Source of the DNA: Myxococcales bacterium
Lineage (GTDB): Bacteria > Myxococcota_A > Polyangia > Palsa-1104 > JAEUJZ01
Direction of reading: 5' to 3'
Length of the DNA: 64,000 nucleotides
NCBI GenBank assembly: GCA_016794505.1
Contig: JAEUJZ010000049.1
Coordinates: 136 to 64,135 of the forward strand
Shown: in pieces, positions 1 to 38,218 of the stretch
Layout: each line of letters opens with the position of its first letter
Position numbering within the stretch: position 1 is the first letter of the stretch
Notes under the pieces: generated by a model
Told to the model about the DNA's origin: nothing
The model's input: only the letters and a program-made list of their open reading frames with translations
Database searches by the model: none
Translations under genes and position numbers: made by a program

Positions 1-421
1 GGCTGCCATGGCCGCCTTCGCCGGGTATCTGGTCATCTTGGTGAAGCAGGTCTTGGACGTGCTGAAAGAGACAGACTCGCAAGGCCGGGCTGCACTGGTC
101 GGTGTGCAGCGGCTGGGCTGGCAGGCGCTGGCCTTGGCGCCTGTTGCAGCGCTGGCCTATGGCGGGGCCTGGCTCTGTGGGCAGCAGCTAGCCAATGCTG
201 CAACGCGCGATCTGCGCAACGACCTCTTGGCGCACTTGGTGCAACTCGACTTGGGCTTTCACCAGCGCATGTCGCGCGGCGATCTGCTGAGCCGCATGAC
301 CGCCGATGTCGAAACCACAGGTGAGCTCTTTGGTCAGATTTTCGGCAAGCTGCTGCAGCGTCCTGCCGAGGCCATCGGGACGGTGTTTTTTCTGTTCTAT
401 GTGTCTTCAAATCAAGGCTAG
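1..421 (+). pseudogene. 5' portion of an MsbA-like ABC exporter gene (transmembrane domain, TM2-TM3 region), truncated by insertion; element-derived tail SNQG-stop
   Basis: ORF 8..421 translation has the ABC-exporter TMD motif RNDLLAHLVQLDLGFHQRMSRGDLLSRMTADVE; the reading frame runs off the window start; it ends FYVS + 4 foreign codons; the continuation of the same protein is at 36950. Confidence 0.6.
392..403. repeat. att-like junction 1 (ctgttctatgtg), left boundary of inserted DNA
   Basis: 12-bp sequence repeated at 6020-6031 and contained in 8371-8400; lies at the point where the ABC reading frame diverges. Confidence 0.55.
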
Positions 422-510: not shown

Positions 511-532
511 ATGGGATCAAGATGGGATCAAC
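511..532 (+). promoter_or_regulatory. tandem 11-bp direct repeats atgggatcaa(g/c) upstream of integrase 1
   Basis: two adjacent copies, about 35 bp upstream of the int start; candidate arm-type or regulatory sites. Confidence 0.25.
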
Positions 533-564
533 AAGCGTGATACGATGGCGCGCGGGGGCGGCCT

Positions 565-1647
565 GTGGGCGAAGTACTAAAGCGGGGTGGCGGCTGGAGC
601 CTGCGCTTCTATGAAGGAGGCAAGCGCCGCGTGCTGGCGAGCAAGCAGCGAAGCCATGCTGACGCCAAGCGCATGCTGCTGGAAATCGAAGCGCGGATCG
701 CGCGTGGTGAGCTCGGAATCGCCGAGCGTCGCGCGTCCTGGCCCACGGTTGCTGCGCTCATCGAACAGTTCCTGACAACGTACAGTCGTCCGTCGCTGAA
801 GGATGTCGAGCGATATCGGGCCCGTACCCGAGCCGTGCTGCAAAAAGTGTTGCCGGTCTTGGGATCGCTCTCGGTGAATAGGGTTCAGTCGAGTGACGTC
901 GCCGCGCTGCGCGATCAGCTTGCCCAGATGTCCAAAGCGGGCACGGTTCGCAACACATTGATGTGTCTAAGTGCCGCCTTCTCTTGGGCCGTGCGGCAGG
1001 GACTGGCGCCGCACAATCCCTGCCGGGGCGTCGAGAAGCCTGCGCATCGAGAGAACCTCGACTTTTTCAGCCGCGAAGAAGTCAGCGCGTTGATTCGCTG
1101 CTGTGAAGAGCGGGCAAGGTCTGGTGCGCTGCTTGATCAGCTGCAGCACGCACGCGTGCTGGTGGCGCTGCACACCGGCCTGCGTAAGGGCGAGCTGTGT
1201 GGTCTGCGCTGGCGTGATCTGGATATCCCGACGCGTCGTCTGACGGTGGCTCGCAGCTATGCGAGCACGCCGAAGTCAGGAAAGTCGCGCCATCTGCGCT
1301 TGCCTGAAGTGGTTGTTCCCGTTTTGACGGACTGGGCGCAGCGCTGTCCGCGCACCGATCAAGGGTTGGTCTTTCCACACCGCGGCCGGCAGGGCTGGAC
1401 TCTTTCGACCAACACCAGCGACTTGCTGGATCTGCCGTCGCTCCTGGAAGCTGCTGGCTGCCGACGCGTCAGCCATCCCTGGCACGTCCTGCGTCACACC
1501 TTCGCCAGTCACTTCATCATGTCGGGGGGCAATATTCTCACCCTGCAAAAGATCTTGGGACACAGCGATGTGAAGATCACCCTGATCTATGCGCACCTCG
1601 CTCCCGACTTTTTGGGAGACGAGATGAATCGAGTGAGGTTTGGGTAG
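565..1647 (+). CDS. tyrosine site-specific recombinase (phage-type integrase)
   Basis: C-terminal catalytic region HVLRHTFASHFIMSGG...LGHSDVKITLIYAHL (R..H..R..Y box); GTG start; about 60-85% similar to the second integrase at 7123-8256. Confidence 0.85.
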   Translation: MGEVLKRGGGWSLRFYEGGKRRVLASKQRSHADAKRMLLEIEARIARGELGIAERRASWPTVAALIEQFLTTYSRPSLKDVERYRARTRAVLQKVLPVLGSLSVNRVQSSDVAALRDQLAQMSKAGTVRNTLMCLSAAFSWAVRQGLAPHNPCRGVEKPAHRENLDFFSREEVSALIRCCEERARSGALLDQLQHARVLVALHTGLRKGELCGLRWRDLDIPTRRLTVARSYASTPKSGKSRHLRLPEVVVPVLTDWAQRCPRTDQGLVFPHRGRQGWTLSTNTSDLLDLPSLLEAAGCRRVSHPWHVLRHTFASHFIMSGGNILTLQKILGHSDVKITLIYAHLAPDFLGDEMNRVRFG

Positions 1648-1812: not shown

Positions 1813-3591
1813 ATGTCGACTCGTATGCATCCACTAAGAAACAACAAGCGCTGGTGTGCGCTGCTGGCTCCGCTGGTTCTCGCCGCTTCGCTCTTTGGCA
1901 GCACTGCGCACGCGCGGACGGATGTCTGCTATCAGGGCGGAGTCAATCTTCCCAACTTCAAGCTGAACGGAACGGCCAAGCTGAACGGCACGACGCTGCT
2001 GGTTACTCCAGATCTGAACAACCAGCTTGGCTCGGCCATGTTTACTCCGACGTTTGCTGCGAACTCAGACATCCACATTCAGCTGCAGCTTCAGATCACA
2101 ACGAGTGCAGGAGGCGGCGGTGGGGCCGATGGCATGGCCTTTGTCATGCATCGCGACCCGCGTGGCGCTGCCGCACTGGGGGATCCCGGTGGAGCGATTG
2201 GGTATGGCGGCGGCACCAAGATTACGCCGAGCGTAGCGGTCGAGATGGATACGTTCACCAACGGTGGGGATCCCAACGCCAACCACATCGGTGTGACGTT
2301 GGACGGGGACACGATGACGCACGTTGCCGCGTACACTCCGCCGTTTGTGATGAAGACCGTTGGCACTCCGTTTTATGTCTGGATCGATTACACGGCGGCA
2401 AACACGCTGCTCGAAGTCTTTGTGTCGCAGAATGCCACCAAGCCAGCGACGGCACAGCTGACGACCAACATCAACATCGCGCAGCGCTTCGGCAATCAGC
2501 CCTTCTACATGGGCTTTACCGGATCGACGGGTGGGGCGAGATCGCAGCACGAGATTCTGAACTTCATCGCGTCCGACACAGCCGCGACCGTCTGCTGTAC
2601 GCAGAACAGTGACTGCGCGGGCAATCCACTGGGCGGAATCTGCGACACCGTGAAGCACGTCTGTGGCCAGTGTACGCCGACCAACTTGAGCGCATGCACC
2701 ATGGCGATGCCGGGCTGTGACATTGGCGGCGCCAGCAACGTCTGCATCGGCGGCTGCATGGGCAATCACATGAGCGGCAACGCGGCAGCCTGCCAGAATG
2801 CATCGGCTCCCTTCTGCATTCCCAGTGGGCCCACGGCTGGCTCATGCGTCGGCTGCAATGGCAACAACGGATCGGGCGCACTCTTCGAGTGCCCGGCTGG
2901 TGCTCCGAGCTGCAATGCGAGCGGCTTCTGCGGTCTGTGCAACAGCAATGCGGACTGCACAGCGACCTGTGACATGACCAGCAAGACCTGTCAGCCCTGC
3001 AATGGCGACAACGGCAGTGCAGCCAGCAATGCCTGCCCCAATTCGGCGTCACCGCTTTGTGATGCGCTGGGCAACTGCCGCAAGTGTACTCGCGACACTG
3101 ACTGCACGACGGGGACGCACGCCGGTCCGTTCTGCAACACCACATCGGGTATTTGCTCGACGAGCTGCTCGAACGATGCACAGTGCGGCGCGGGCATGTG
3201 GTGCAACACGAACAGCGGCGACGGTACGAAGTGTGAAAACGTTCTCACCAATGGCCAGCCTCTACCCGGCACCACCGTATGCACGCCCGAGCTTGCCCTG
3301 CGCGCCTGCGAAAGCCAGGCATGCAACCCGAGCAACAACCAGTGTGTGGAGTGTGCCGTCGATTCAGACTGCGACACTGCGGGCCAGGTCTGCAGCAACT
3401 TCGTCTGCAAAGCGGCGCCGATGCCCCCAGCGGATGTGTTTTCGTTCGCGGGTGGTGGCTTTGGCTGTAGCTGCAACGTCGGAAGCCACACCAGCAGCAG
3501 CGCGTCCACGCTCGCAGTCGCGGCATGCCTGGCACTGCTGGCTGCACGGACGTGGCGCCGCCGACGGCAGGACCGCGTATCCGCTAACTAG
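1813..3591 (+). CDS. secreted L-type (legume-like) lectin domain protein with Cys-rich repeats and C-terminal MYXO-CTERM sorting signal
   Basis: SD aggagg before the ATG at 1813; signal peptide; ConA-like lectin region; many C..C.N.N.DC repeats; C-terminal GGFGCSCN...hydrophobic...RRRRQ tail. Confidence 0.7.
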   Translation: MSTRMHPLRNNKRWCALLAPLVLAASLFGSTAHARTDVCYQGGVNLPNFKLNGTAKLNGTTLLVTPDLNNQLGSAMFTPTFAANSDIHIQLQLQITTSAGGGGGADGMAFVMHRDPRGAAALGDPGGAIGYGGGTKITPSVAVEMDTFTNGGDPNANHIGVTLDGDTMTHVAAYTPPFVMKTVGTPFYVWIDYTAANTLLEVFVSQNATKPATAQLTTNINIAQRFGNQPFYMGFTGSTGGARSQHEILNFIASDTAATVCCTQNSDCAGNPLGGICDTVKHVCGQCTPTNLSACTMAMPGCDIGGASNVCIGGCMGNHMSGNAAACQNASAPFCIPSGPTAGSCVGCNGNNGSGALFECPAGAPSCNASGFCGLCNSNADCTATCDMTSKTCQPCNGDNGSAASNACPNSASPLCDALGNCRKCTRDTDCTTGTHAGPFCNTTSGICSTSCSNDAQCGAGMWCNTNSGDGTKCENVLTNGQPLPGTTVCTPELALRACESQACNPSNNQCVECAVDSDCDTAGQVCSNFVCKAAPMPPADVFSFAGGGFGCSCNVGSHTSSSASTLAVAACLALLAARTWRRRRQDRVSAN

Positions 3592-3635: not shown

Positions 3636-5843
3636 GTGCGTCGCCTTGCTTATCTTCGACAGGTATCGGCCATCGCTGCGTTCGTCGGTGGTCTTGGCAG
3701 CGTCGTCTCGACGGCGCAGGCTCAGACTGCGACGCCGGCCAACGGCTTCCAGGTCAATCGCTACGAGCCCACAAGTGCCGGTGAGTGGTCACTCATGGTC
3801 GACCACCCTTGGTACAGCTCGATGCGCTACTTCGCCGCCGGCATTACTCTGAACTATGCACATGCACCGCTGGTCGTCGGCACGCGCGACGCCAACGGGG
3901 TGTTCACGCGAAACGGGGCGGCGATTGCGCATCAGCTCTTGGGGCACGTCGATCTCGCTGGGTCCTTTTTGGATCGCGTGCAGATCTCGGCGACGCTGCC
4001 GATCACGCTGCTGGAACGCGATGATCCGATGGGTATCGCGGCGATGCGTGGTGTATCGCTGGTGTCCTCTGTGGCAGTGGGAGATCCGCGCTTCGGGCTC
4101 AAGGTGCGGCTGTTTGGCCAGCCGTACCGCGGCGCTATCTCGATGAGCTTGGGGGCCGATGTCTGGGTGCCGGTGAATGCGCTCGCCGGCAATCCGTTTC
4201 CGGCGCAGGTCGGCGAAAGTAGCGTGCGTATCCTGCCTAAGCTGATGCTGGGCGGGCTGTCGCACGGTGTGATGTGGTCGCTGAACGCGGGCTTCCTGTA
4301 CCGGCCGTTTGGCACGGTGGCGGGTCAGGCGGCAGCACCGGGCAACACCATGGACTCTGAGCTGCAGATCGGAGCCATGATTGGCTACGCCAGCTATGAG
4401 AAGCGCTTCGCGATCGGACCGGAAGCGCTGCTTAGCACCATGGTGGGGCTGAACCAGCCGGGCACGGCCTTTAAGCAGGACTACACCAGCCTCGAAGTCC
4501 TGCTCGGCATCCACTACAACATCGCCAAGATTCTGCAGCTCAGCATCGGCGGTGGCGTGGGCCTATTGCGTGAACCTGGCACGCCGGACGCTCGCGGGCT
4601 CTTGCGCCTGTCCTATGCGCCGATCCGCGAAGAGAAGCCCAAGGATCGCGACGGCGACAGCATCCCAGATAAGCGCGATGCTTGTCCCGATGAGCCGGGG
4701 GTCGTGACGACGGATCCGATGACCAATGGCTGCCCGCCGCCGCCCAAGGATAGCGATGGCGATGGCATCGTTGATCCGCAGGATCAGTGCCCGACCGAGC
4801 CGCAGGGCAAGCATCCGCACCCAAGTCGCCGAGGCTGCCCGAACACGGACAAAGACGGCGATGGTGTCTTCGACAACGAAGACAAGTGCATCGACGAACC
4901 CGCAGGCAAGGACGCCGATGCCGACCTGCCCGGCTGCCCGCTGCGTGACAAGGATGGCGACGGCTTCTTCGACAAGCAGGATCAGTGTGTCGACACGCCC
5001 GCTGGCGCCAACCCCGATCCAAGCAAGCCCGGTTGCCCAGACAAGGACAGCGACAACGACGGAGTCTATGACGCCAAGGATCAGTGCAAGGACGTGCCGT
5101 CGGGCTTCAATCCTGACCCTGAAAAGCCCGGCTGCCCCTTGCCCGACCGCGACAACGACAAGGTGCCGGACAAGGTCGACGCTTGCCCGGACAAGCCTGG
5201 TGCGCCGAACACCGACCCGAAGAAGAACGGCTGCCCTGGCTTGGTCGAGATGAAGGACGGCCAGATCGTGATCCTCAAGCAGGTGTTCTTCGCGACCAAC
5301 AAAGACGTCGTGCTGAAGAACAGCTTCCCGGTGCTGGATGCGGTGGTTGCGACGCTGAAGATCATGACCCAGGTCAAGAAGGTCGCCGTCGAAGGACACA
5401 CCGACAACAAGGGCCAGGCCGACAAGAACCGCGATCTGTCAAACCGCCGCGCCAAGAGCGTCGTGAAGTACTTGGTCGATCACGGCATCGACGCCGGCCG
5501 CCTTGAGGCCATGGGCTATGGCCCGGATCGCCCGATCGCGGACAACAAGACGGAAAAAGGCCGCGCCAAGAACCGTCGCACGGATTTCCGTATCGTCGAT
5601 CCGCCTTCAGCAAATCCCGCGCAGGCGCCTGCCCCCAGCGCAAGCCCGCCGGCCAACACGCAGTCTGAGGCTCCTGCCAAGCAGCCGTCTGAGGTCAAAA
5701 AGACGGACAAGGCGGACAAGGCCGGCAAGGGCAAGCCCGCTCAGAAGGCGCCGTCGAGCCAACCCGCCAAACAGAAGAATGCTGCAGCGCCCAAGGCGGC
5801 CGCTGCGGCCAAGGCGGGCAAGGCGCCCAAGAAGGCCAAGTAG
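3636..5843 (+). CDS. OmpA-family outer-membrane protein with thrombospondin type-3 (Ca-binding) repeats and Lys/Ala-rich tail
   Basis: GTG start after aaaggggg; signal peptide; repeated D.D.DG..D..D motifs; OmpA_C motif GHTDNKG...NRRAKSV...NRRTDFRIV. Confidence 0.8.
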   Translation: MRRLAYLRQVSAIAAFVGGLGSVVSTAQAQTATPANGFQVNRYEPTSAGEWSLMVDHPWYSSMRYFAAGITLNYAHAPLVVGTRDANGVFTRNGAAIAHQLLGHVDLAGSFLDRVQISATLPITLLERDDPMGIAAMRGVSLVSSVAVGDPRFGLKVRLFGQPYRGAISMSLGADVWVPVNALAGNPFPAQVGESSVRILPKLMLGGLSHGVMWSLNAGFLYRPFGTVAGQAAAPGNTMDSELQIGAMIGYASYEKRFAIGPEALLSTMVGLNQPGTAFKQDYTSLEVLLGIHYNIAKILQLSIGGGVGLLREPGTPDARGLLRLSYAPIREEKPKDRDGDSIPDKRDACPDEPGVVTTDPMTNGCPPPPKDSDGDGIVDPQDQCPTEPQGKHPHPSRRGCPNTDKDGDGVFDNEDKCIDEPAGKDADADLPGCPLRDKDGDGFFDKQDQCVDTPAGANPDPSKPGCPDKDSDNDGVYDAKDQCKDVPSGFNPDPEKPGCPLPDRDNDKVPDKVDACPDKPGAPNTDPKKNGCPGLVEMKDGQIVILKQVFFATNKDVVLKNSFPVLDAVVATLKIMTQVKKVAVEGHTDNKGQADKNRDLSNRRAKSVVKYLVDHGIDAGRLEAMGYGPDRPIADNKTEKGRAKNRRTDFRIVDPPSANPAQAPAPSASPPANTQSEAPAKQPSEVKKTDKADKAGKGKPAQKAPSSQPAKQKNAAAPKAAAAAKAGKAPKKAK

Positions 5844-5940: not shown

Positions 5941-6018
5941 GCAGAGTCTCGCGGGATCAGCACGGGATCGCGTTCACCCGTCTCCGTCGGCGATTGCGTC
6001 GAGGCGCCAGCTTGTGTG

Positions 6019-6036
6019 CCTGTTCTATGTGAACTG
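6019..6036. repeat. att-like junction 2 (cctgttctatgtgaactg) between E1 and E2
   Basis: shares 12 bp with junction 1 and 16 bp (tgttctatgtgaactg) with junction 3. Confidence 0.55.
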
Positions 6037-6431
6037 AAGGCACGAGGCATGCAGCGACGGCTGAGCAGAGCAATTCGGCAGGCGTCGTCCCAGGAGCGTC
6101 CGGTTCCCAACGGCTGCCTGCGAAGTCCGTTTTCCATCCTGGGCATCACCGAAGCTCGGACTGGATCGGCCCGACAGCCGCGGGCTGCAGGTTGAACAAG
6201 GTTGGGCAGAGCGCCGCATGTCCCAGGCGAACCAGGCACGAGGCGCAGGCGACCGCGAAAAGACCCAGGACCATATTGTGCCGCCTAGCGCACTTCGTTA
6301 TGGTGTGCGCCTCACCAAGCCACTCCTATGTCGAGCTGTGCGGTGTCTGACGATCAGCCCCGATGCCGCCTGACCCGAGCGGCAGTCTGAGCCGCTCTTC
6401 CACAAAGCCTGCTAGCCAAGGAGGTCCGTTC

Positions 6432-7043
6432 ATGTGTACACCGACGCTTCGCCGTATTGCCCCCTTCTGTCTTCTCGGACTGTTTGCCGCCTGTGGTCAG
6501 CCCGTCGATGATCCAGCAGCGCAGCAGCCCGAAGAGGCGCTAGAGAACACGCCGCCCGGTCTGATCGTCTTCGATGAAGGCGCACCGCTGCCGGCGGACT
6601 TCGTCATCCAGGCGCTCACCGCCAGCGAGCAGACCACGATGCTTAGCACGGTCAACGCCAAGCGAACCCGCGGCGCCACCTGCGGCACCACGGCCTACTC
6701 GGCTGCACCGGCTCTGGTCACCAATGCCAAGCTGGTACAGGCGGCCGAAGGCCATGCCGCGGACATGGCGGCGCGCAACTACTTCAGCCACTACACCCAG
6801 GGGACCAACGCCAATCCGGGGCAGCGCATCACGGCCACCGGATACAAGTGGTCAACCTACGGCGAAAACATCGCCGCCGGGCAGACCTCGATCGCCGCCG
6901 CCGTCGATAGCTGGTACAAGAGCGCGGGGCACTGCGCGAACTTCATGAACAAGAACTTCACGCAGGCTGGCTTCGGCAAGGGCTACAGCGCTAGCTCGAC
7001 GTACAAGAACTATTGGGTCGCGGTGATGGCGAAGCCGCTCTAG
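6432..7043 (+). CDS. CAP/SCP/PR-1-like domain lipoprotein
   Basis: SD aaggagg before the ATG at 6432; lipobox LFAAC; CAP signature region GHCANFMNKNFTQAGFGKGYS and GENIAAG. Confidence 0.65.
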   Translation: MCTPTLRRIAPFCLLGLFAACGQPVDDPAAQQPEEALENTPPGLIVFDEGAPLPADFVIQALTASEQTTMLSTVNAKRTRGATCGTTAYSAAPALVTNAKLVQAAEGHAADMAARNYFSHYTQGTNANPGQRITATGYKWSTYGENIAAGQTSIAAAVDSWYKSAGHCANFMNKNFTQAGFGKGYSASSTYKNYWVAVMAKPL

Positions 7044-7122
7044 CCCACGTGCAGGTGCCCCTGTGATGTGGGCGCCTGGGTGGCTTTCATCGCGGGGGCT
7101 TTGCGAACGCCAAGACAGCGCT

Positions 7123-8256
7123 CTAGAAGTCGACGCGATTCATCTCGTCCCCAAGAAAGTCGGGGGCCAAGTGGGCGTAGAGTAGCGTGGTCTTGACGTC
7201 GCTGTGCCCGAGGATCTTCTGCAGCGCCAAGAGGTTGCCACCGTTCATGATGTAGTGGCTCGCGAACGTGTGGCGCAGCGCATGCCAGGGATTGGGTAGG
7301 ACGCGAACCCCCGCCGCACGCAGCAGCGCCGGCAAGCCCAAAAGGGCGCTGCTGCGTGATTCCATACCCCAGGTTCCTCGTCGCTGTTTCACTGGAAACA
7401 CCAGCCCCGCATCGGTCTTGGGGCAGCACTGTGCCCAGTCTTGAAGGTGCGAGATCACGGCATCCGGCAGACGCAGGTGGCGCGCCTTGCCGGACTTGGG
7501 TGTACCGCGATAGCTGCGGGCGATGGTCAGACGCTTGCTCGTAACGTCCAGATCGCGCCAGCGCAGGCCCAAGAGCTCGCCTTTGCGGACGCCGGTATGC
7601 AGCGTAAAGAGCACACGCAGATAGAGCAGCTTGGCGTCGACATCGCTCTGCGCTTCCGGGCGAGCAGCGCCAAGCAGCGTGCGAACCTCGTCCTTGCTCC
7701 AAAAGTCCAGAGCGCTGGGTGAGGCTGGCTTTTCGATCCCGCGCGTTGGGTTGCTTGGCACCAGTCCCTGACGCACGGCCCATGAAAAAATCAGGCCCAG
7801 CGTGCTGAGTACGTTGCGCACGGTTCCGGCACCTCGCGTTGCGGCCAAGCGATCTCGCAGCCGAGTGACATCTGTGGCGCGCAGGGCATGCGCGGGTGTG
7901 CTGCCGATCGCTGACAAGGCCGTAGACAGCACGGCGCGCACGCGTGCTCGATAGGCAGCCAGATCCTTGATGCGAGGCCGGCTGTATTCGACAAGAAATC
8001 GCTCGGTCAGCTCGGCCAATGTCAGCTTGGTCTGATGCGCAGGGACGCCCACCTCGCCACGAGCGATGCGCGCCTCGATCTGCACGAGCAGCTTGCGCGC
8101 CTCGGCATACGTTGGCTGCTTGCTCGCGATCTGACGACGCCTGCCCTGTTCATAGAAGCGCAGATAGAAGCCGATGAAGCGACCGCGGCGAACGCACTTG
8201 ATGACTTCGCCCAAGACATCCCCCGTGGCGATCGTAGCACGCGAGCGTCGTCCCAC
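7123..8256 (-). CDS. tyrosine site-specific recombinase (phage-type integrase), paralog of 565-1647
   Basis: WHALRHTFASHYIMNGG...LGHSDVKTTLLYAHLAPDFLGDEMNRVDF; N-terminal LRFYEQGRRRQIASKQ matches int1. Confidence 0.85.
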   Translation of the reverse strand: MGRRSRATIATGDVLGEVIKCVRRGRFIGFYLRFYEQGRRRQIASKQPTYAEARKLLVQIEARIARGEVGVPAHQTKLTLAELTERFLVEYSRPRIKDLAAYRARVRAVLSTALSAIGSTPAHALRATDVTRLRDRLAATRGAGTVRNVLSTLGLIFSWAVRQGLVPSNPTRGIEKPASPSALDFWSKDEVRTLLGAARPEAQSDVDAKLLYLRVLFTLHTGVRKGELLGLRWRDLDVTSKRLTIARSYRGTPKSGKARHLRLPDAVISHLQDWAQCCPKTDAGLVFPVKQRRGTWGMESRSSALLGLPALLRAAGVRVLPNPWHALRHTFASHYIMNGGNLLALQKILGHSDVKTTLLYAHLAPDFLGDEMNRVDF

Positions 8257-8370
8257 CGTCGTCCTCTAGCCAGGTGTATTCTGCGTCGAGAACGAGCGCT
8301 GGAGCCTTGCCGAAGTGGGACCGCAGTGCCGTAACCCCGCGAAACCACAGCGAGCCGCGACCATTCAGTC

Positions 8371-8400
8371 TTGTTCTATGTGAACTGGCAATTTTCTGCC
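8371..8400. repeat. att-like junction 3; contains an intact copy of the inferred target sequence ttctatgtgaactggcaattttctgcc (encodes FYVNWQFSA)
   Basis: left 16 bp match junction 2 and left 11 bp match junction 1; right 19 bp gaactggcaattttctgcc (8382-8400) are repeated at 36946-36964. Confidence 0.6.
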
Positions 8401-8497
8401 GGCGAAGCGCGATGACGACGGTGAGGGGAGGGAGCAGCGAGCCGAGTGCGGCGCTGGGTATCCCGCGGGCCCGGCGATGGATCGTGGATGAGGGGGA

Positions 8498-15688: not shown

Positions 15689-16612
15689 TCATGGCTTGGG
15701 GTGGGCCATTAGGAAGTCGTAGATGGAACCGGGCCACTGGGCGTTGAAGGCAGGAATGTGGCCGCCTCCTTCGAGGGTCCACAGCTCGACGGCCCCATCG
15801 CTGGCGCAGCCGGAATAGGACTCGACCTTGGTTTCCGCACCAGCCAGAGTGGACTCGATGTCGAGTCGGACGCCGTTCGTTGTGAGGGGGCCAAGGCAGG
15901 CGTTGCGGTTGGCCCAGATAGCGACGGTCTGGCGTGCCCCCGGTGTGAGCGGAGTGCCGTCATAGGCAACGTTGGTGTCGGCGGTGCCGTGGACTTGCAG
16001 CACCGAGACTTTGCCGACGGGACGACACTTGCTGGAATCAATCCACTGGCCACCGGCCAAGCTCACGATGCCAGCAATTTTCGCACTGCGATCACAGGCC
16101 ATGCGATGCGCCATGTAGCCGCCATTGGAGTGCCCCACGAGGAAGACCCGCTGGGGGTCGACCGTGTACCGGCTGGATAGGTCATCAATGACCGCGGTCA
16201 AGTAAGCAACGTCGTCGACCTTGCTACCAAAGAAATCGCAGCAGCCATCGGTGGCATTCCAAAAGCGCACGCCGACGGGGTCTTTGGTTCCATCCGGGTA
16301 GGCGTAGAGAAACGTGCGGGCATCGGCCAGCGGAGCCAGGTGCAGGACCAGCTCATTGAGCTCACCGCTGGCTGACAGACCGTGCAGCATCACGACAAGC
16401 GGAGTCGGTTTCTTGGCATCATAGCCCTTCGGTACTTTGTGCTTGTACGGGCGTGCCATGATCAGCGCGGCGGCTTCGGGGGACAAAGAAGCCGCTGCGG
16501 GCGGACTGCTGCCGGACGACGCTTGGCCGTCGCAAGCAGACAGACCGACAGCGAGTCCAGCCAACAACAGAGACAGTGGTGCCGCTCGGCGCATGAAGAC
16601 CCCTTTGCTCAA
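15689..16612 (-). CDS. lipoprotein alpha/beta-hydrolase (PHB-depolymerase/esterase family)
   Basis: signal peptide with lipobox LSAC; GHSNGG nucleophile elbow; VMLHG motif. Confidence 0.65.
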   Translation of the reverse strand: MSKGVFMRRAAPLSLLLAGLAVGLSACDGQASSGSSPPAAASLSPEAAALIMARPYKHKVPKGYDAKKPTPLVVMLHGLSASGELNELVLHLAPLADARTFLYAYPDGTKDPVGVRFWNATDGCCDFFGSKVDDVAYLTAVIDDLSSRYTVDPQRVFLVGHSNGGYMAHRMACDRSAKIAGIVSLAGGQWIDSSKCRPVGKVSVLQVHGTADTNVAYDGTPLTPGARQTVAIWANRNACLGPLTTNGVRLDIESTLAGAETKVESYSGCASDGAVELWTLEGGGHIPAFNAQWPGSIYDFLMAHPKP

Positions 16613-36744: not shown

Positions 36745-36945
36745 GCGCGTTCATCCTGGGCAAGGGATGCTGGAATCGGTCGCGTAACGCCAGCCAGCTA
36801 TAGGTCGCCGACTTCCTTATCATCCCGTGGTTATCCCTCGATCATCGCGCGGCGCTCGTCTGGGACATTTGTCGATGGAGCCGCTGGCTGATCTCGTCTT
36901 TTGCCAACCCCGCGAACACAGAGCCCTTTTCCGCCCAGCCACATA

Positions 36946-36964
36946 GAACTGGCAATTTTCTGCC
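36946..36964. repeat. att-like junction 4 (gaactggcaattttctgcc), 19-bp direct repeat of 8382-8400; right boundary of inserted DNA
   Basis: exact 19/19 match; the ABC reading frame resumes immediately (NWQFSAVIF...). Confidence 0.6.
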
Positions 36965-38218
36965 GTCATCTTTTTGGCGCTGCTGCCGGCGGCGTTTGGG
37001 CTGAGCATGCTGCTGCGCAAGGTGAGCCGGCGGTCGCGTCGGGCTCGGCGGCGCCAAGCTGAAAACTTCACGGCGCTGGAACAGATCGCGAGCGGCATCA
37101 AGGTGATCAAAGCCATGGGCTCGGCCGCGGCCGAGCGGGCGCGTTATGAGCGGACCAACAGCGCTCTTTACGCCGCCAAGATGAAGATCGCGCTCGCCCG
37201 TGCCGAGAGTGATGCGCTGATTGGAGGCCTGTCGTTTGCTCTGATCGGCGTTGTGGTGCTGGGCAGCGCGGCAGCGATTGCACATGCGCGGATGGATAGC
37301 TCTAGCGTGCTCACGTTCATCACCGCGCTGATTCGTCTGACGACGTTGATGAAGACCGGCACCAAGGCCTATGGCGAGATCCAGGAAAATCTGCCAGCGG
37401 CCGCGCGCTTGTTCGCCGTGCTGAACCAAGAGAGCCGCATCACCGATCGCGCCGGAGCCCCTCCATGTCCGCGACCCCAGCAGGCGATCCAACTTCACAA
37501 CGTGCGCTTCGGCTATGGCGTCGGTGCGGAAGTCCTGCGTGGGGTCAACTTGACGCTGCCGGTGGGCAAGATCGTGGCTCTGGTGGGCGAGTCGGGATCG
37601 GGAAAGTCCACGCTCATCGATCTGATCTTGCGCTTTCGTGATGTCACAGGCGGCTGTATCAGCGTCGACGGTGTCGACATTCGCAGCGTGCAACAGGCCA
37701 GCTTGGTGCAGCACTGTGCCTTGGTCTCGCAGGACCTGTTTCTGTTCAACGACACGATCGAAAACAACATCCGCTATGGCCGGCCGGATGCGACAGCCGC
37801 CGAAGTCGAGGAAGCAGCACGACGCGCCCACATCCACGACACCATCTTGAAGCTGCCCGGCGGGCAGGGATATCAGACAGTGGTCGGGGATCGCGGCGAT
37901 CGCCTGTCAGGAGGCCAGCGGCAGCGCATCGCGATTGCCCGTGCCCTATTGCGCAATGCTCCGGTGCTGCTGCTCGATGAGCCGACGAGTGCGCTAGATG
38001 CCGAGAGCGAACATCATGTGCAAGCCGCGCTGCGCGAGCTTATGCGCGGGCGTACCTGCTTGGTGATTGCGCATCGCCTGAGCACGGTGCAGCACGCCGA
38101 CTGCATCTGCGTCCTGAGCCGCGAGACGGGAAACGTCGTCGAGACTGGCACCCATCAAGAGCTGCTCTCACGCGGCGGTGAGTACGCGCGCTTGGTCCAG
38201 ATGCAGCAGCTTGGCTGA
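36950..38218 (+). pseudogene. 3' portion of the same MsbA-like ABC exporter (TM4-TM6 plus nucleotide-binding domain)
   Basis: an in-frame stop at 36944-36946 precedes NWQFSAVIFLALLPAAFG; Walker A GESGSGKST, signature LSGGQRQR, Walker B LLLDEPTSALD; with 1-421 it forms a continuous ABC protein. Confidence 0.7.

What the first reader, a model, noticed from the sequence alone, without database searches (positions are those of the whole stretch)
6020..8387. E2: about 2.4-kb minimal integrative element (integrase plus CAP-domain lipoprotein) in mirror orientation to E1
The segment is bounded by 16-bp identity tgttctatgtgaactg (6021-6036 and 8372-8387). Its integrase (7123-8256, minus strand) is a close paralog of int1, about 85% identical over the catalytic C-terminus. 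It sits with its start about 120 bp from junction 3, mirroring int1 with its start 160 bp from junction 1. The only cargo is a secreted CAP/PR-1-like lipoprotein. Two related integrases target overlapping but offset crossover segments of one attB, which is unusual and suggests diversification of att specificity.
Basis: partly seen in the sequence, partly recalled or inferred. Interest (0 to 1): 0.55.

Follow-up and report, generated by a model that had tools for sequence, protein, structure and literature searches.

The report
Tiny integrase-plus-one-gene mobile element
A 2.35-kb stretch carrying only an integrase gene and one secreted-lipoprotein gene is a real, probably still active, site-specific mobile element; it is one of three related elements stacked at a single spot inside a broken ABC-transporter gene of an uncultured myxobacterium.

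Summary
TGTTCTATGTGAACTG occurs only at 6021-6036 and 8372-8387. It brackets a convergent CAP-lipoprotein gene and a tyrosine-integrase gene.

Independent metagenome assemblies treat E2 as a discrete unit:
- A 2367-nt contig found in four samples equals 6021-8387 exactly.
- One contig shows the site with neither E1 nor E2.
- Contig ends fit co-existing attP-type junctions.

The int+CAP module recurs at 92% and 72% nucleotide identity under purifying selection, with the same core.

E1 and E2 both have lambda-like attP sites: two pairs of 8-mers 11 bp apart, 169 nt from pair to pair. The arm sequences differ (GGGATCA in E1, GGGACGAC in E2). The central TATGT is flipped relative to int and arms, which explains the mirror orientation.

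The truly offset site belongs to a third, integrase-less 28.6-kb segment (8402-36945). It has 20-bp repeats and splits the ABC gene, whose 3' part resumes at 36947.

Verdict: a new family member of a known kind (arm-dependent integrative element in tandem accretion). Moderately interesting.

The parts
6021..6036 (+). Left copy of the E2 core (attL2). With C6020 it is also the right core of E1 (attR1). The near-palindrome is CTGTTC-TATGT-GAACTG.
   Evidence: Contig L002 starts exactly at 6021, and contigs L026/L028 end exactly at 6031.
8372..8387 (+). Right copy of the E2 core (attR2).
   Evidence: L002 and L019 end exactly at 8387, and L008 ends at 8372.
6037..8371 (.). E2 body. The unit is 2351 bp including one core.
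   Evidence: L002 (2367 nt, seen in 4 samples) is 100% identical to 6021-8387. Three further int2 variants also sit on 2367-nt contigs.
6432..7043 (+). The only cargo: a CAP/YkwD-like putative lipoprotein of 203 aa, with AAGGAGG 7 nt upstream of the ATG.
   Evidence: PF00188. TIGR02909 YkwD family, below its cutoff. dN/dS is 0.05-0.11 against the L019 and L038 copies.
7123..8214 (-). int2, a tyrosine integrase of 363 aa starting at TTG 8214. The open frame runs on to GTG 8256.
   Evidence: PF00589 plus PF22022. phrog_1 integrase at 5e-65. Alignment to XerD/XerA/HP1 keeps TGVRKGEL, HALRHTF, LGHSD and LLYAH. Start placed by homology. dN/dS is 0.13-0.16.
8247..8265 (-). int-proximal pair of arm-type sites, AGGACGAC-GGT-GGGACGAC. 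It is followed by a conserved TACGAT (-10-like, 8230-8235) just upstream of int2.
   Evidence: The same pair sits at the same place in L019, L038 and L035.
6084..6102 (-). int-distal pair of arm-type sites, CGGACGCT-CCT-GGGACGAC, 47 nt from the core.
   Evidence: The L035 equivalent, AGGACGACCACGGGACGAC, lies about 50 nt from its core.
392..403 (+). Context: E1 left core (attL1), inside codons LFYV of the ABC gene.
565..1647 (+). Context: int1 of E1, 58% identical to int2.
513..531 (+). Context: E1 int-proximal arm pair, GGGATCAAGATGGGATCAA.
5953..5971 (+). Context: E1 int-distal arm pair, GGGATCAGCACGGGATCGC, 48 nt from the core.
   Evidence: L035 has GGGATCACCACGGGATCAG at the same position.
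2..403 (+). Context: 5' part of the MsbA-like ABC exporter gene, which is the target gene.
   Evidence: PF00664 profile positions 23-140 of 274.
36947..38218 (+). Context: 3' part of the same ABC gene. It begins NWQFSAVIFL and includes the ATPase domain.
   Evidence: The joined protein matches full-length MsbA-like proteins at 75% identity over 100% of its length.
8382..8401 (+). Context: left copy of the 20-bp repeat GAACTGGCAATTTTCTGCCG that flanks segment S.
   Evidence: 0 expected by chance.
36946..36965 (+). Context: right copy of the 20-bp repeat flanking segment S.
36819..36837 (-). Context: third-type arm pair, GGGATAACCACGGGATGAT, 108 nt from the repeat, with no integrase gene behind it.
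   Evidence: The same site type and spacing sit upstream of the integrase in L013.

Best explanation
E2 is a self-contained integrative element of 2351 bp. It is one member of a family of lambda-like, arm-site-dependent tyrosine-integrase elements of uncultured Myxococcales.

Its attP consists of:
- a near-palindromic core, CAGTTC-ACATA-GAACA when read on the int strand;
- a pair of GGGACGAC-type arm sites 106 nt away on the int side, overlapping the int promoter region;
- a second pair 47 nt away on the other side.

Int2 is inferred to bind core and arm sites, to exchange strands within the central TATGT region, and so to insert and excise the circle. No excision helper gene was found.

The target core lies in codons LFYVNW of an MsbA-like ABC exporter gene that was already split in this lineage. 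E2 therefore sits in a harmless hybrid site, next to E1. E1 is a sister element with the same geometry and core but different arm sites (GGGATCA).

The core half-sites are inverted repeats, so only the asymmetric centre fixes orientation. In E2 that centre is flipped relative to int and arms compared with E1, so the two elements enter the same site in opposite orientations.

Shown: the repeats, genes, arm motifs, empty site, conserved module and purifying selection.
Inferred: binding, the crossover position, current activity and autoregulation.
For: Occupancy:
- L003 joins ABC5' directly to 8388 and onward through ...ttttttCTGTTCTATGTGAACTGgcaatt..., exactly the predicted unoccupied site.
- L001 reproduces E1-E2 at 100% identity.

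Discreteness:
- L002 equals 6021-8387 in 4 samples.
- Three more int2 variants lie on 2367-nt contigs.
- With k=31 graphs, a contig starting at 6021 and ending at 8387 needs a second left context with a base other than C at position -1, and a second right context with a base other than G at position +1. The P2-core-P2' junction (circle or tandem) supplies both.
- L026 and L028 end at 6031, which is the analogous signature for E1.
- L008 ends at 8372, indicating E2 present and absent in one sample.

Conservation:
- The int+CAP module recurs with the same core upstream of int in L019 (92% nt) and in L038/L039 (72% nt; int 73% aa, CAP 78% aa).
- dN/dS is 0.05-0.16.
- L035 has an E1-like element followed by a mirrored E2-like element with different cargo. 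It is flanked by GTTCTATGTGAA(C/T).

attP architecture:
- The strict tandem 8-mer motif occurs only 3 times in 64 kb, each time next to an att core.
- The distance from arm pair to arm pair through attP is 169 nt in both E1 and E2.
- Type-specific arm sequences and positions are conserved in L035.

Enzyme:
- int2 keeps the conserved Arg, His-x-x-Arg, His and Tyr motif blocks in alignment with XerD/XerA/HP1.
Against: - No read-level or contig-level sequence of the attP2 junction was obtained. Its presence is inferred from contig ends only.
- No contig shows E2 without E1, or E1 without E2, with both flanks visible. The empty site lacks both, so joint movement is not excluded.
- No excisionase (RDF) candidate was found in E2.
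- E2 has no transfer function, so spread between cells is unexplained.
- The near-identical and 92%-identical copies could largely reflect vertical inheritance.
- The left boundary of the L038 copy was not found.
Confidence: 0.8

Rival explanations
1. E1 and E2 are not independent. Together they form one 8-kb composite island with an integrase gene at each end reading inward. It moves only as a whole, and the internal core at 6020-6036 is a relic of an old accretion.
For: - The only empty site seen lacks both elements (L003).
- The same E1-like plus mirrored E2-like pairing recurs in a relative (L035).
- No single-occupancy contig with both flanks was recovered.
Against: - The internal core is a perfect 17-nt copy.
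- Contigs break exactly at 6021, 6031, 8372 and 8387, as expected for separate units.
- E2-type modules with their own core occur on their own short contigs in several lineages.
- Each element has a complete two-armed attP with its own arm-site type.
- Cargo differs between E2-type copies while E1-type cargo is kept.
Confidence: 0.1
2. E2 is a fixed, immobile fossil of a once larger element. The repeats are leftovers, and int2 and CAP persist as ordinary chromosomal genes.
For: - There is no excisionase and no transfer gene.
- G+C content is the same as the surroundings.
- The copies at 92% and 100% identity could be vertical descent.
Against: - Presence/absence polymorphism occurs within near-identical strains (99.7-100% identity).
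- Contig-end signatures point to alternative junctions.
- The integrase is under strong purifying selection and keeps its catalytic motifs.
- Arm sites are conserved across relatives.
Confidence: 0.07
3. int2 is a host-recruited recombinase. Its real job is to rearrange the neighbouring 28.6-kb segment S, or to switch the ABC gene, rather than to move E2.
For: - S is flanked by att-like repeats and lacks its own integrase.
- Alternative S junctions are seen in metagenomes.
- E2 abuts S.
Against: - The arm sites of S are of a third type (GGGATAAC), matched to a different integrase clade only 50% identical to int2.
- The identity block of S excludes the TATGT centre used by E2.
- S junctions also occur where E1 and E2 are absent (L003).
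Confidence: 0.03

Closest known systems
Lambda-type, arm-site-dependent tyrosine integrase systems (lambda Int, HP1, P2; general knowledge)
   Same: - Tyrosine recombinase with the catalytic motifs. The C-terminus aligns best with HP1- and P2-like integrases and with Xer proteins.
- attP has a core of inverted half-sites around a short asymmetric centre, plus repeated arm-type sites on both sides.
- The int gene lies next to attP.
   Different: - At most 27% identity to any sequenced phage integrase, and no NCBIfam model reached its cutoff.
- The element has no phage genes and no recognisable Xis.
- The target is inside a protein-coding gene, not a tRNA.
- Arm binding was not tested.
Tandem accretion of integrative elements, and cis-mobilizable elements (CIMEs), as described for ICESt1-related elements and IMEs (review PMC5704250)
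   Same: - Several elements with related integrases of similar site specificity are stacked at one att site.
- One unit (S) has kept att sites but lost its integrase, which is the definition of a CIME quoted.
- Complex excision patterns are expected.
   Different: - No conjugation or mobilisation genes are present anywhere in E1, E2 or S.
- Neighbouring elements are in opposite orientation.
- The integrase-less unit carries housekeeping genes (guaA, guaB).
- The host is Myxococcota.
Relaxase-less genomic islands that keep only an integrase, att sites and possibly an oriT ('iOriTs', bioRxiv 10.64898/2026.01.13.699239)
   Same: An att-delimited island with an integrase and cargo but no relaxase or mating-pore genes. 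How it transfers is unknown.
   Different: - E2 is far smaller (2.35 kb, one cargo gene).
- No oriT was looked for or could be recognised.
- No helper element was identified.
Cre/loxP and FLP/FRT sites (general knowledge: the asymmetric spacer sets site orientation)
   Same: Inverted half-sites flank an asymmetric centre. The reverse-complemented centre in E2 versus E1 (relative to int and arms) goes with opposite insertion orientation.
   Different: Cre and FLP need no arm sites. Here the principle is inferred from sequence only.

Membership tests
Tyrosine recombinase / phage-integrase superfamily | Catalytic domain with the conserved Arg, His-x-x-Arg, His/Trp and Tyr residues | tested here: met
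   PF00589 matched over profile positions 4-169 of 172. Alignment with XerD and XerA keeps TGVRKGEL, HALRHTF, LGHSD and LLYAH.
Tyrosine recombinase / phage-integrase superfamily | Core-binding (SAM-like) central domain | tested here: met
   PF22022 Phage_int_M at 26.5 bits for int2, just under the 27-bit cutoff, and 32.1 bits for int1.
Lambda-like arm-dependent integrative element | Repeated arm-type sites on both sides of the attP core, conserved among relatives | tested here: met
   The pairs are at 8247-8265 and 6084-6102. The same type and spacing occur in L019, L038 and L035. The strict motif occurs only 3 times in 64 kb, each time beside an att core. Protein binding was not tested.
Lambda-like arm-dependent integrative element | Excisionase / recombination directionality factor | tested here: not met
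   No small ORF in 6037-6431 has any Pfam match at E<=1. That region is not conserved in L038.
Site-specific integrative element (any) | Direct repeats of the core at both ends, plus an unoccupied site in a related genome | tested here: met
   The 16-bp repeat. L003 is the unoccupied site, but it lacks E1 and E2 together.
Site-specific integrative element (any) | Excised circular form (attP junction) | tested here: inconclusive
   Only indirect evidence: the ends of L002 at 6021 and 8387 require alternative contexts that the attP2 junction would supply. No junction sequence was retrieved.
Integrative and mobilizable element (IME) | Relaxase and/or oriT for conjugative mobilisation | tested here: not met
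   E2 encodes only int2 and the CAP protein. oriT is not testable with these tools.
Cis-mobilizable element (CIME), applied to segment S | attL and attR retained, with integration and transfer genes lost | tested here: met
   The 20-bp repeats. A type-3 arm pair without an integrase gene. No integrase-like sequence in S by tblastn or Pfam.
CAP / SCP / PR-1 superfamily (the cargo) | CAP domain | tested here: met
   PF00188 at 64 bits against a cutoff of 21.1. The YkwD and DalA NCBIfam models are below their cutoffs.

The most novel reading that the evidence does not exclude
The site is a natural recombination hub built by one integrase family that has split into three mutually orthogonal specificities. 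These are arm codes GGGATCA, GGGACGAC and GGGATAAC, with a flipped or shifted crossover region.

This would let several elements live side by side in one gene without cross-excision.

One of these att pairs now flanks 28.6 kb of apparently core chromosome (guaA, guaB, an ECF sigma factor, a kinase). In wild populations that segment would be excised or tandemly duplicated by an integrase supplied in trans, which would reversibly rejoin or split the MsbA-like gene.
Probability: 0.3. Interest if true: 0.7.

Novelty: new member of a known kind. Interest (0 to 1): 0.42.

Why it matters
- It gives a cleanly delimited example of about the smallest workable integrative element: one integrase, one cargo gene and a complete two-armed attP in 2.35 kb.
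- Mobile elements in Myxococcota are hardly described.
- Two sister elements share a core but differ in arm sequences and in the orientation of the central bases. They form a ready-made natural experiment on how integrases become orthogonal and how insertion orientation is set.
- Such pairs could also serve as genetic tools for myxobacteria.
- The neighbouring integrase-less segment with housekeeping genes suggests that these att sites can also drive rearrangement of ordinary chromosome.

Tried and rejected
- Chance repeat: rejected.
- tRNA, tmRNA or other RNA target: none found.
- Compositional island: no G+C contrast, so this is uninformative.
- Intact ABC gene in close relatives: not found. 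The hits at 94% and 88% identity are 3' fragments only.
- Pattern scan of JGI metagenomes for core plus flank: 4 hits, all unrelated. One is another organism's ABC gene with the same 16-mer.
- Scan of GTDB genomes with int2: only one close relative, L019.
- Exact look-up of int1 (GTG start): not on record.
- Sigma-70 promoter scan of E2: nothing.
- Xis search: nothing.
- Phage collection: best integrases only 24-27% identical.
- Models of segment S as a single inversion, or as a spacer-mismatch inversion: none reproduces both observed junctions and the 14 extra duplicated bases. I could not decide between a circle and a tandem duplication for the S-end-to-S-start junction.
- Recurrent contig break at 16094-16115 as a further recombination site: no core-like sequence there, only a 9-mer GCAATTTTC nearby. 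Left unexplained.
Full report
**Observation**

TGTTCTATGTGAACTG is present exactly twice in the window, at 6021-6036 and 8372-8387. No further copy appears even with three mismatches, and 0.16 are expected by chance. Its first 11-12 bases recur at 392-403.

Between the two copies lie two convergent genes:
- 6432-7043 (+) encodes a 203-aa CAP-domain protein with a lipoprotein-like N-terminus.
- 7123-8256 (-) is an open frame for a tyrosine recombinase.

int2 is 58% identical to int1 (565-1647, +) overall and 80% identical over the last 60 residues. Alignment of the upstream regions and tblastn with four relatives place the true int2 start at the TTG at 8214, giving 363 aa. The start is therefore 157 nt from the core, matching the 161 nt for int1. 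No tRNA or Rfam RNA lies at the site, and G+C content does not differ from the surroundings.

The window comes from a 386-kb contig of a MAG named 'Myxococcales bacterium' (int2 = MBL9004669.1).

**E2 as a discrete unit in other assemblies**

Exact-protein look-ups gave these independent contigs:
- L001 (14.5 kb) reproduces E1-E2 and the right flank at 100% identity.
- L002 is 2367 nt, was found in four samples, and equals 6021-8387 base for base. It begins and ends with the 16-mer.
- Three further int2 variants (at least 90% identical) also lie on contigs of exactly 2367 nt.
- L003 joins the ABC 5' fragment directly to 8388 and onward through ttttttCTGTTCTATGTGAACTGgcaattttc. This is the site with neither E1 nor E2.
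- L008 stops at 8372, and L026 and L028 stop at 6031, the end of E1's 12-bp block.

In a k=31 de Bruijn graph, simple presence/absence of E2 would give a contig spanning about 6007-8401. A contig that starts at 6021 and ends at 8387 needs a second left context with a base other than C before TGTTC. It also needs a second right context with a base other than G after AACTG. E2's own ends (…cagtct and aaggca…) satisfy both, which means an attP2-type junction (circle or tandem). The stop at 6031 is the same signature for E1. This is inference from contig ends; I could not retrieve a junction sequence.

**A conserved family**

- L019, from another Myxococcales MAG, is 92% identical to 6326-8387 and ends exactly at …cagtctTGTTCTATGTGAACTG.
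- L038 and L039 carry the same int+CAP pair (int 73% aa, CAP 78% aa, 72% nt), with GTTCTATGTGAAC at a similar position upstream of int.
- Both genes are under purifying selection: dN/dS is 0.13-0.16 for int and 0.05-0.11 for CAP, at dS up to 1.2.
- L035 has an E1-like element (int1-like, lectin, OmpA-TSP3) followed by a mirrored E2-like element. The E2-like integrase is 70% identical to int2, but the cargo is a cupin plus three unknown proteins. A core lies between the two elements (ctGTTCTATGTGAACag) and another at the outer end (caGTTCTATGTGAATca).
- The wider integrase family has hundreds of members at 50-73% identity, many on very short contigs. The few that carry a source name come from Haliangium sp., Polyangia and 'Pseudomonadota' MAGs.
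- The family is remote from sequenced phage integrases (at most 27% identity), and no NCBIfam model reached its cutoff.

**attP architecture and the mirror orientation**

Upstream of every integrase of the family lies a tandem pair of 8-mers 11 bp apart, followed by a conserved TACGAT-like hexamer.

| Element | int-proximal pair | int-distal pair |
|---|---|---|
| E2 | AGGACGACGGTGGGACGAC, 8247-8265 (-) | CGGACGCTCCTGGGACGAC, 6084-6102 (-) |
| E1 | GGGATCAAGATGGGATCAA, 513-531 (+) | GGGATCAGCACGGGATCGC, 5953-5971 (+) |

- The proximal pair lies 106-109 nt from the core and the distal pair 47-48 nt. Pair-to-pair distance through attP is 169 nt in both elements.
- The same type-specific sequences occupy the same positions in L035.
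- The strict motif occurs only three times in 64 kb, each time beside an att core.
- The core is a near-palindrome, CTGTTC-TATGT-GAACTG.
- Read on the int strand, E1's attP is CTGTTC-TATGT-G… and E2's is CAGTTC-ACATA-GAACA. The half-sites are equivalent and only the centre is reverse-complemented.
- That accounts for insertion of the two elements into one site in opposite orientations.
- E1's 12-bp block and E2's 16-bp block are nested and both contain TATGT, so there is no evidence for offset crossovers between them.
- What has diverged is the arm code. I infer that this keeps the two neighbours from excising each other.

**The target**

The core lies in codons LFYVNW of an MsbA-like ABC exporter, covering profile positions 23-140 of the membrane domain. 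After 8387 the frame stops within 10 codons. The gene resumes at 36947 (NWQFSAVIFL…, then the ATPase domain). The joined protein matches full-length homologues at 75% identity over its whole length.

The two halves are separated by E1, E2 and a 28.6-kb segment S (8402-36945). S is flanked by a perfect 20-bp repeat, GAACTGGCAATTTTCTGCCG (8382-8401 and 36946-36965; 0 expected by chance).

S has no integrase. It carries guaA, guaB, a Ser/Thr kinase, an ECF sigma factor, an S41 peptidase, a Dam-type methylase, SulP and two SPFH genes.

Near the right end of S lies a third-type arm pair, GGGATAACCACGGGATGAT (36819-36837, -), 108 nt from the repeat. In relative L013 the same site type, at the same spacing, precedes an integrase that is 50% identical to int2 and 47% to int1. 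That integrase abuts the ABC 3' part directly. S therefore has the att ends of a third family member whose integrase is gone, which makes it CIME-like (definition).

The identity block of S excludes TATGT. The bases to its left are CACATA in S and GATTTG in L013. So this third type, not E2, is the one with an offset crossover region.

The closest relatives found (94% and 88% identity) have only the 3' ABC fragment, so the split is old. E1 and E2 sit in the hybrid site between ABC5' and the left end of S.

**Segment S is also polymorphic**

- L005 and L010 (100% identical; parent contig 20.9 kb) join 36965 to 8382, that is, the end of S to its start. L006 and L009 reach only 10 nt into the S end across the same junction.
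- L011 ends in a way that implies a junction without S in the sample that also yielded L001.
- I cannot tell a circle from a tandem duplication.
- In a more distant relative with an intact ABC gene, SulP and the two SPFH genes lie just downstream of ABC in the opposite orientation. The left part of S may therefore be native DNA. Simple inversion models did not reproduce the junctions.

**Mechanism**

Shown:
- a complete integrase;
- a two-armed attP;
- direct repeats of the core;
- an unoccupied site;
- conservation and selection.

Inferred:
- Int2 binds GGGACGAC arm sites with its N-terminal part and the C(A/T)GTTC half-sites with its core-binding domain.
- It exchanges strands in or at the TATGT centre, inserting and excising the 2351-bp circle.
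- Arm-site occupancy next to TACGAT autoregulates int.
- Excision needs either no Xis or a host or neighbour factor.
- Spread between cells depends on an unknown helper, or on transformation.

**Comparison and verdict**

E2 works like a lambda-type integrative element and sits in a tandem accretion like those described for ICE/IME/CIME arrays. It resembles relaxase-less islands but is much smaller. It is not an IME, because it has no relaxase, and it is not phage-derived in any recognisable way.

It is a new member of a known kind. The orthogonal arm codes, the flipped centre and the att-flanked housekeeping segment are the interesting extras.

Confidence that E2 is a discrete integrative element is about 0.8. 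That it is active today is likely but unproven.

Noticed in passing
window 8402-36945 (repeats at 8382-8401 and 36946-36965): A 28.6-kb segment S splits the ABC gene. It carries guaA, guaB, a kinase, an ECF sigma factor, a Dam methylase, SulP and two SPFH genes. It has a perfect 20-bp direct repeat at each end, third-type arm sites (GGGATAAC) and no integrase. Metagenome contigs join its end to its start (L005, L010, L006, L009). One contig end (L011) implies a junction lacking S.
   Followed up: partly
L013:1-1115 (GCA_041908565.1, JAYRFD010000368.1): In a relative whose ABC 3' part is 94% identical, a third-clade integrase (50% to int2) sits mirrored directly against ...gatttgGAACTGGCAGTTTTCTGCGgtgatc. 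Its arm sites are GGGATAACAGAAGGATAAC. The same gene position is thus occupied by different elements in different lineages.
   Followed up: partly
L015-L018 (relative with intact ABC, 70% identity): SulP-carbonic-anhydrase and two Band_7 genes lie 1.5 kb downstream of the intact ABC gene on the same strand. In the window the same three genes abut the ABC 5' half on the opposite strand. This hints at a local rearrangement rather than foreign origin for that part of S.
   Followed up: partly
window 16094-16115: Four contigs from three independent assemblies (L001, L004, L029, L030) break here, inside an esterase gene, with a 22-nt overlap (CATGGCGCATCGCATGGCCTGT). A 9-mer, GCAATTTTC, shared with the 20-bp repeat lies about 15 nt away. 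The cause is unknown.
   Followed up: partly
L031:2396-2419 (JGI Ga0070671_100047887): An unrelated organism's intact ABC exporter gene contains the exact 16-mer within codons MFYVNWKLALL. The core therefore coincides with a widely conserved ABC membrane-domain motif, which could make many ABC genes potential targets.
   Followed up: no
window 1813-3591 and 3636-5843 (E1 cargo): E1 carries a legume-lectin-domain protein with long Cys-rich repeats. Its C-terminal GGGFGCSC...hydrophobic...RRRR tail looks like a myxobacterial sorting signal (not tested). It also carries an OmpA protein with thrombospondin type-3 repeats. The same two genes are kept in the E1-like element of L035.
   Followed up: no
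window 8230-8235 (-), 536-541 (+): A conserved TACGAT/TACAAT hexamer follows the int-proximal arm pair in all five family members aligned. This suggests that the integrase promoter overlaps its own arm sites.
   Followed up: no
one search hit list: Very many homologues of int2 (50-73% identity) lie on contigs of only 1.2-3 kb. This would be expected if small elements of this family are commonly repeated or polymorphic in Myxococcota metagenomes.
   Followed up: no
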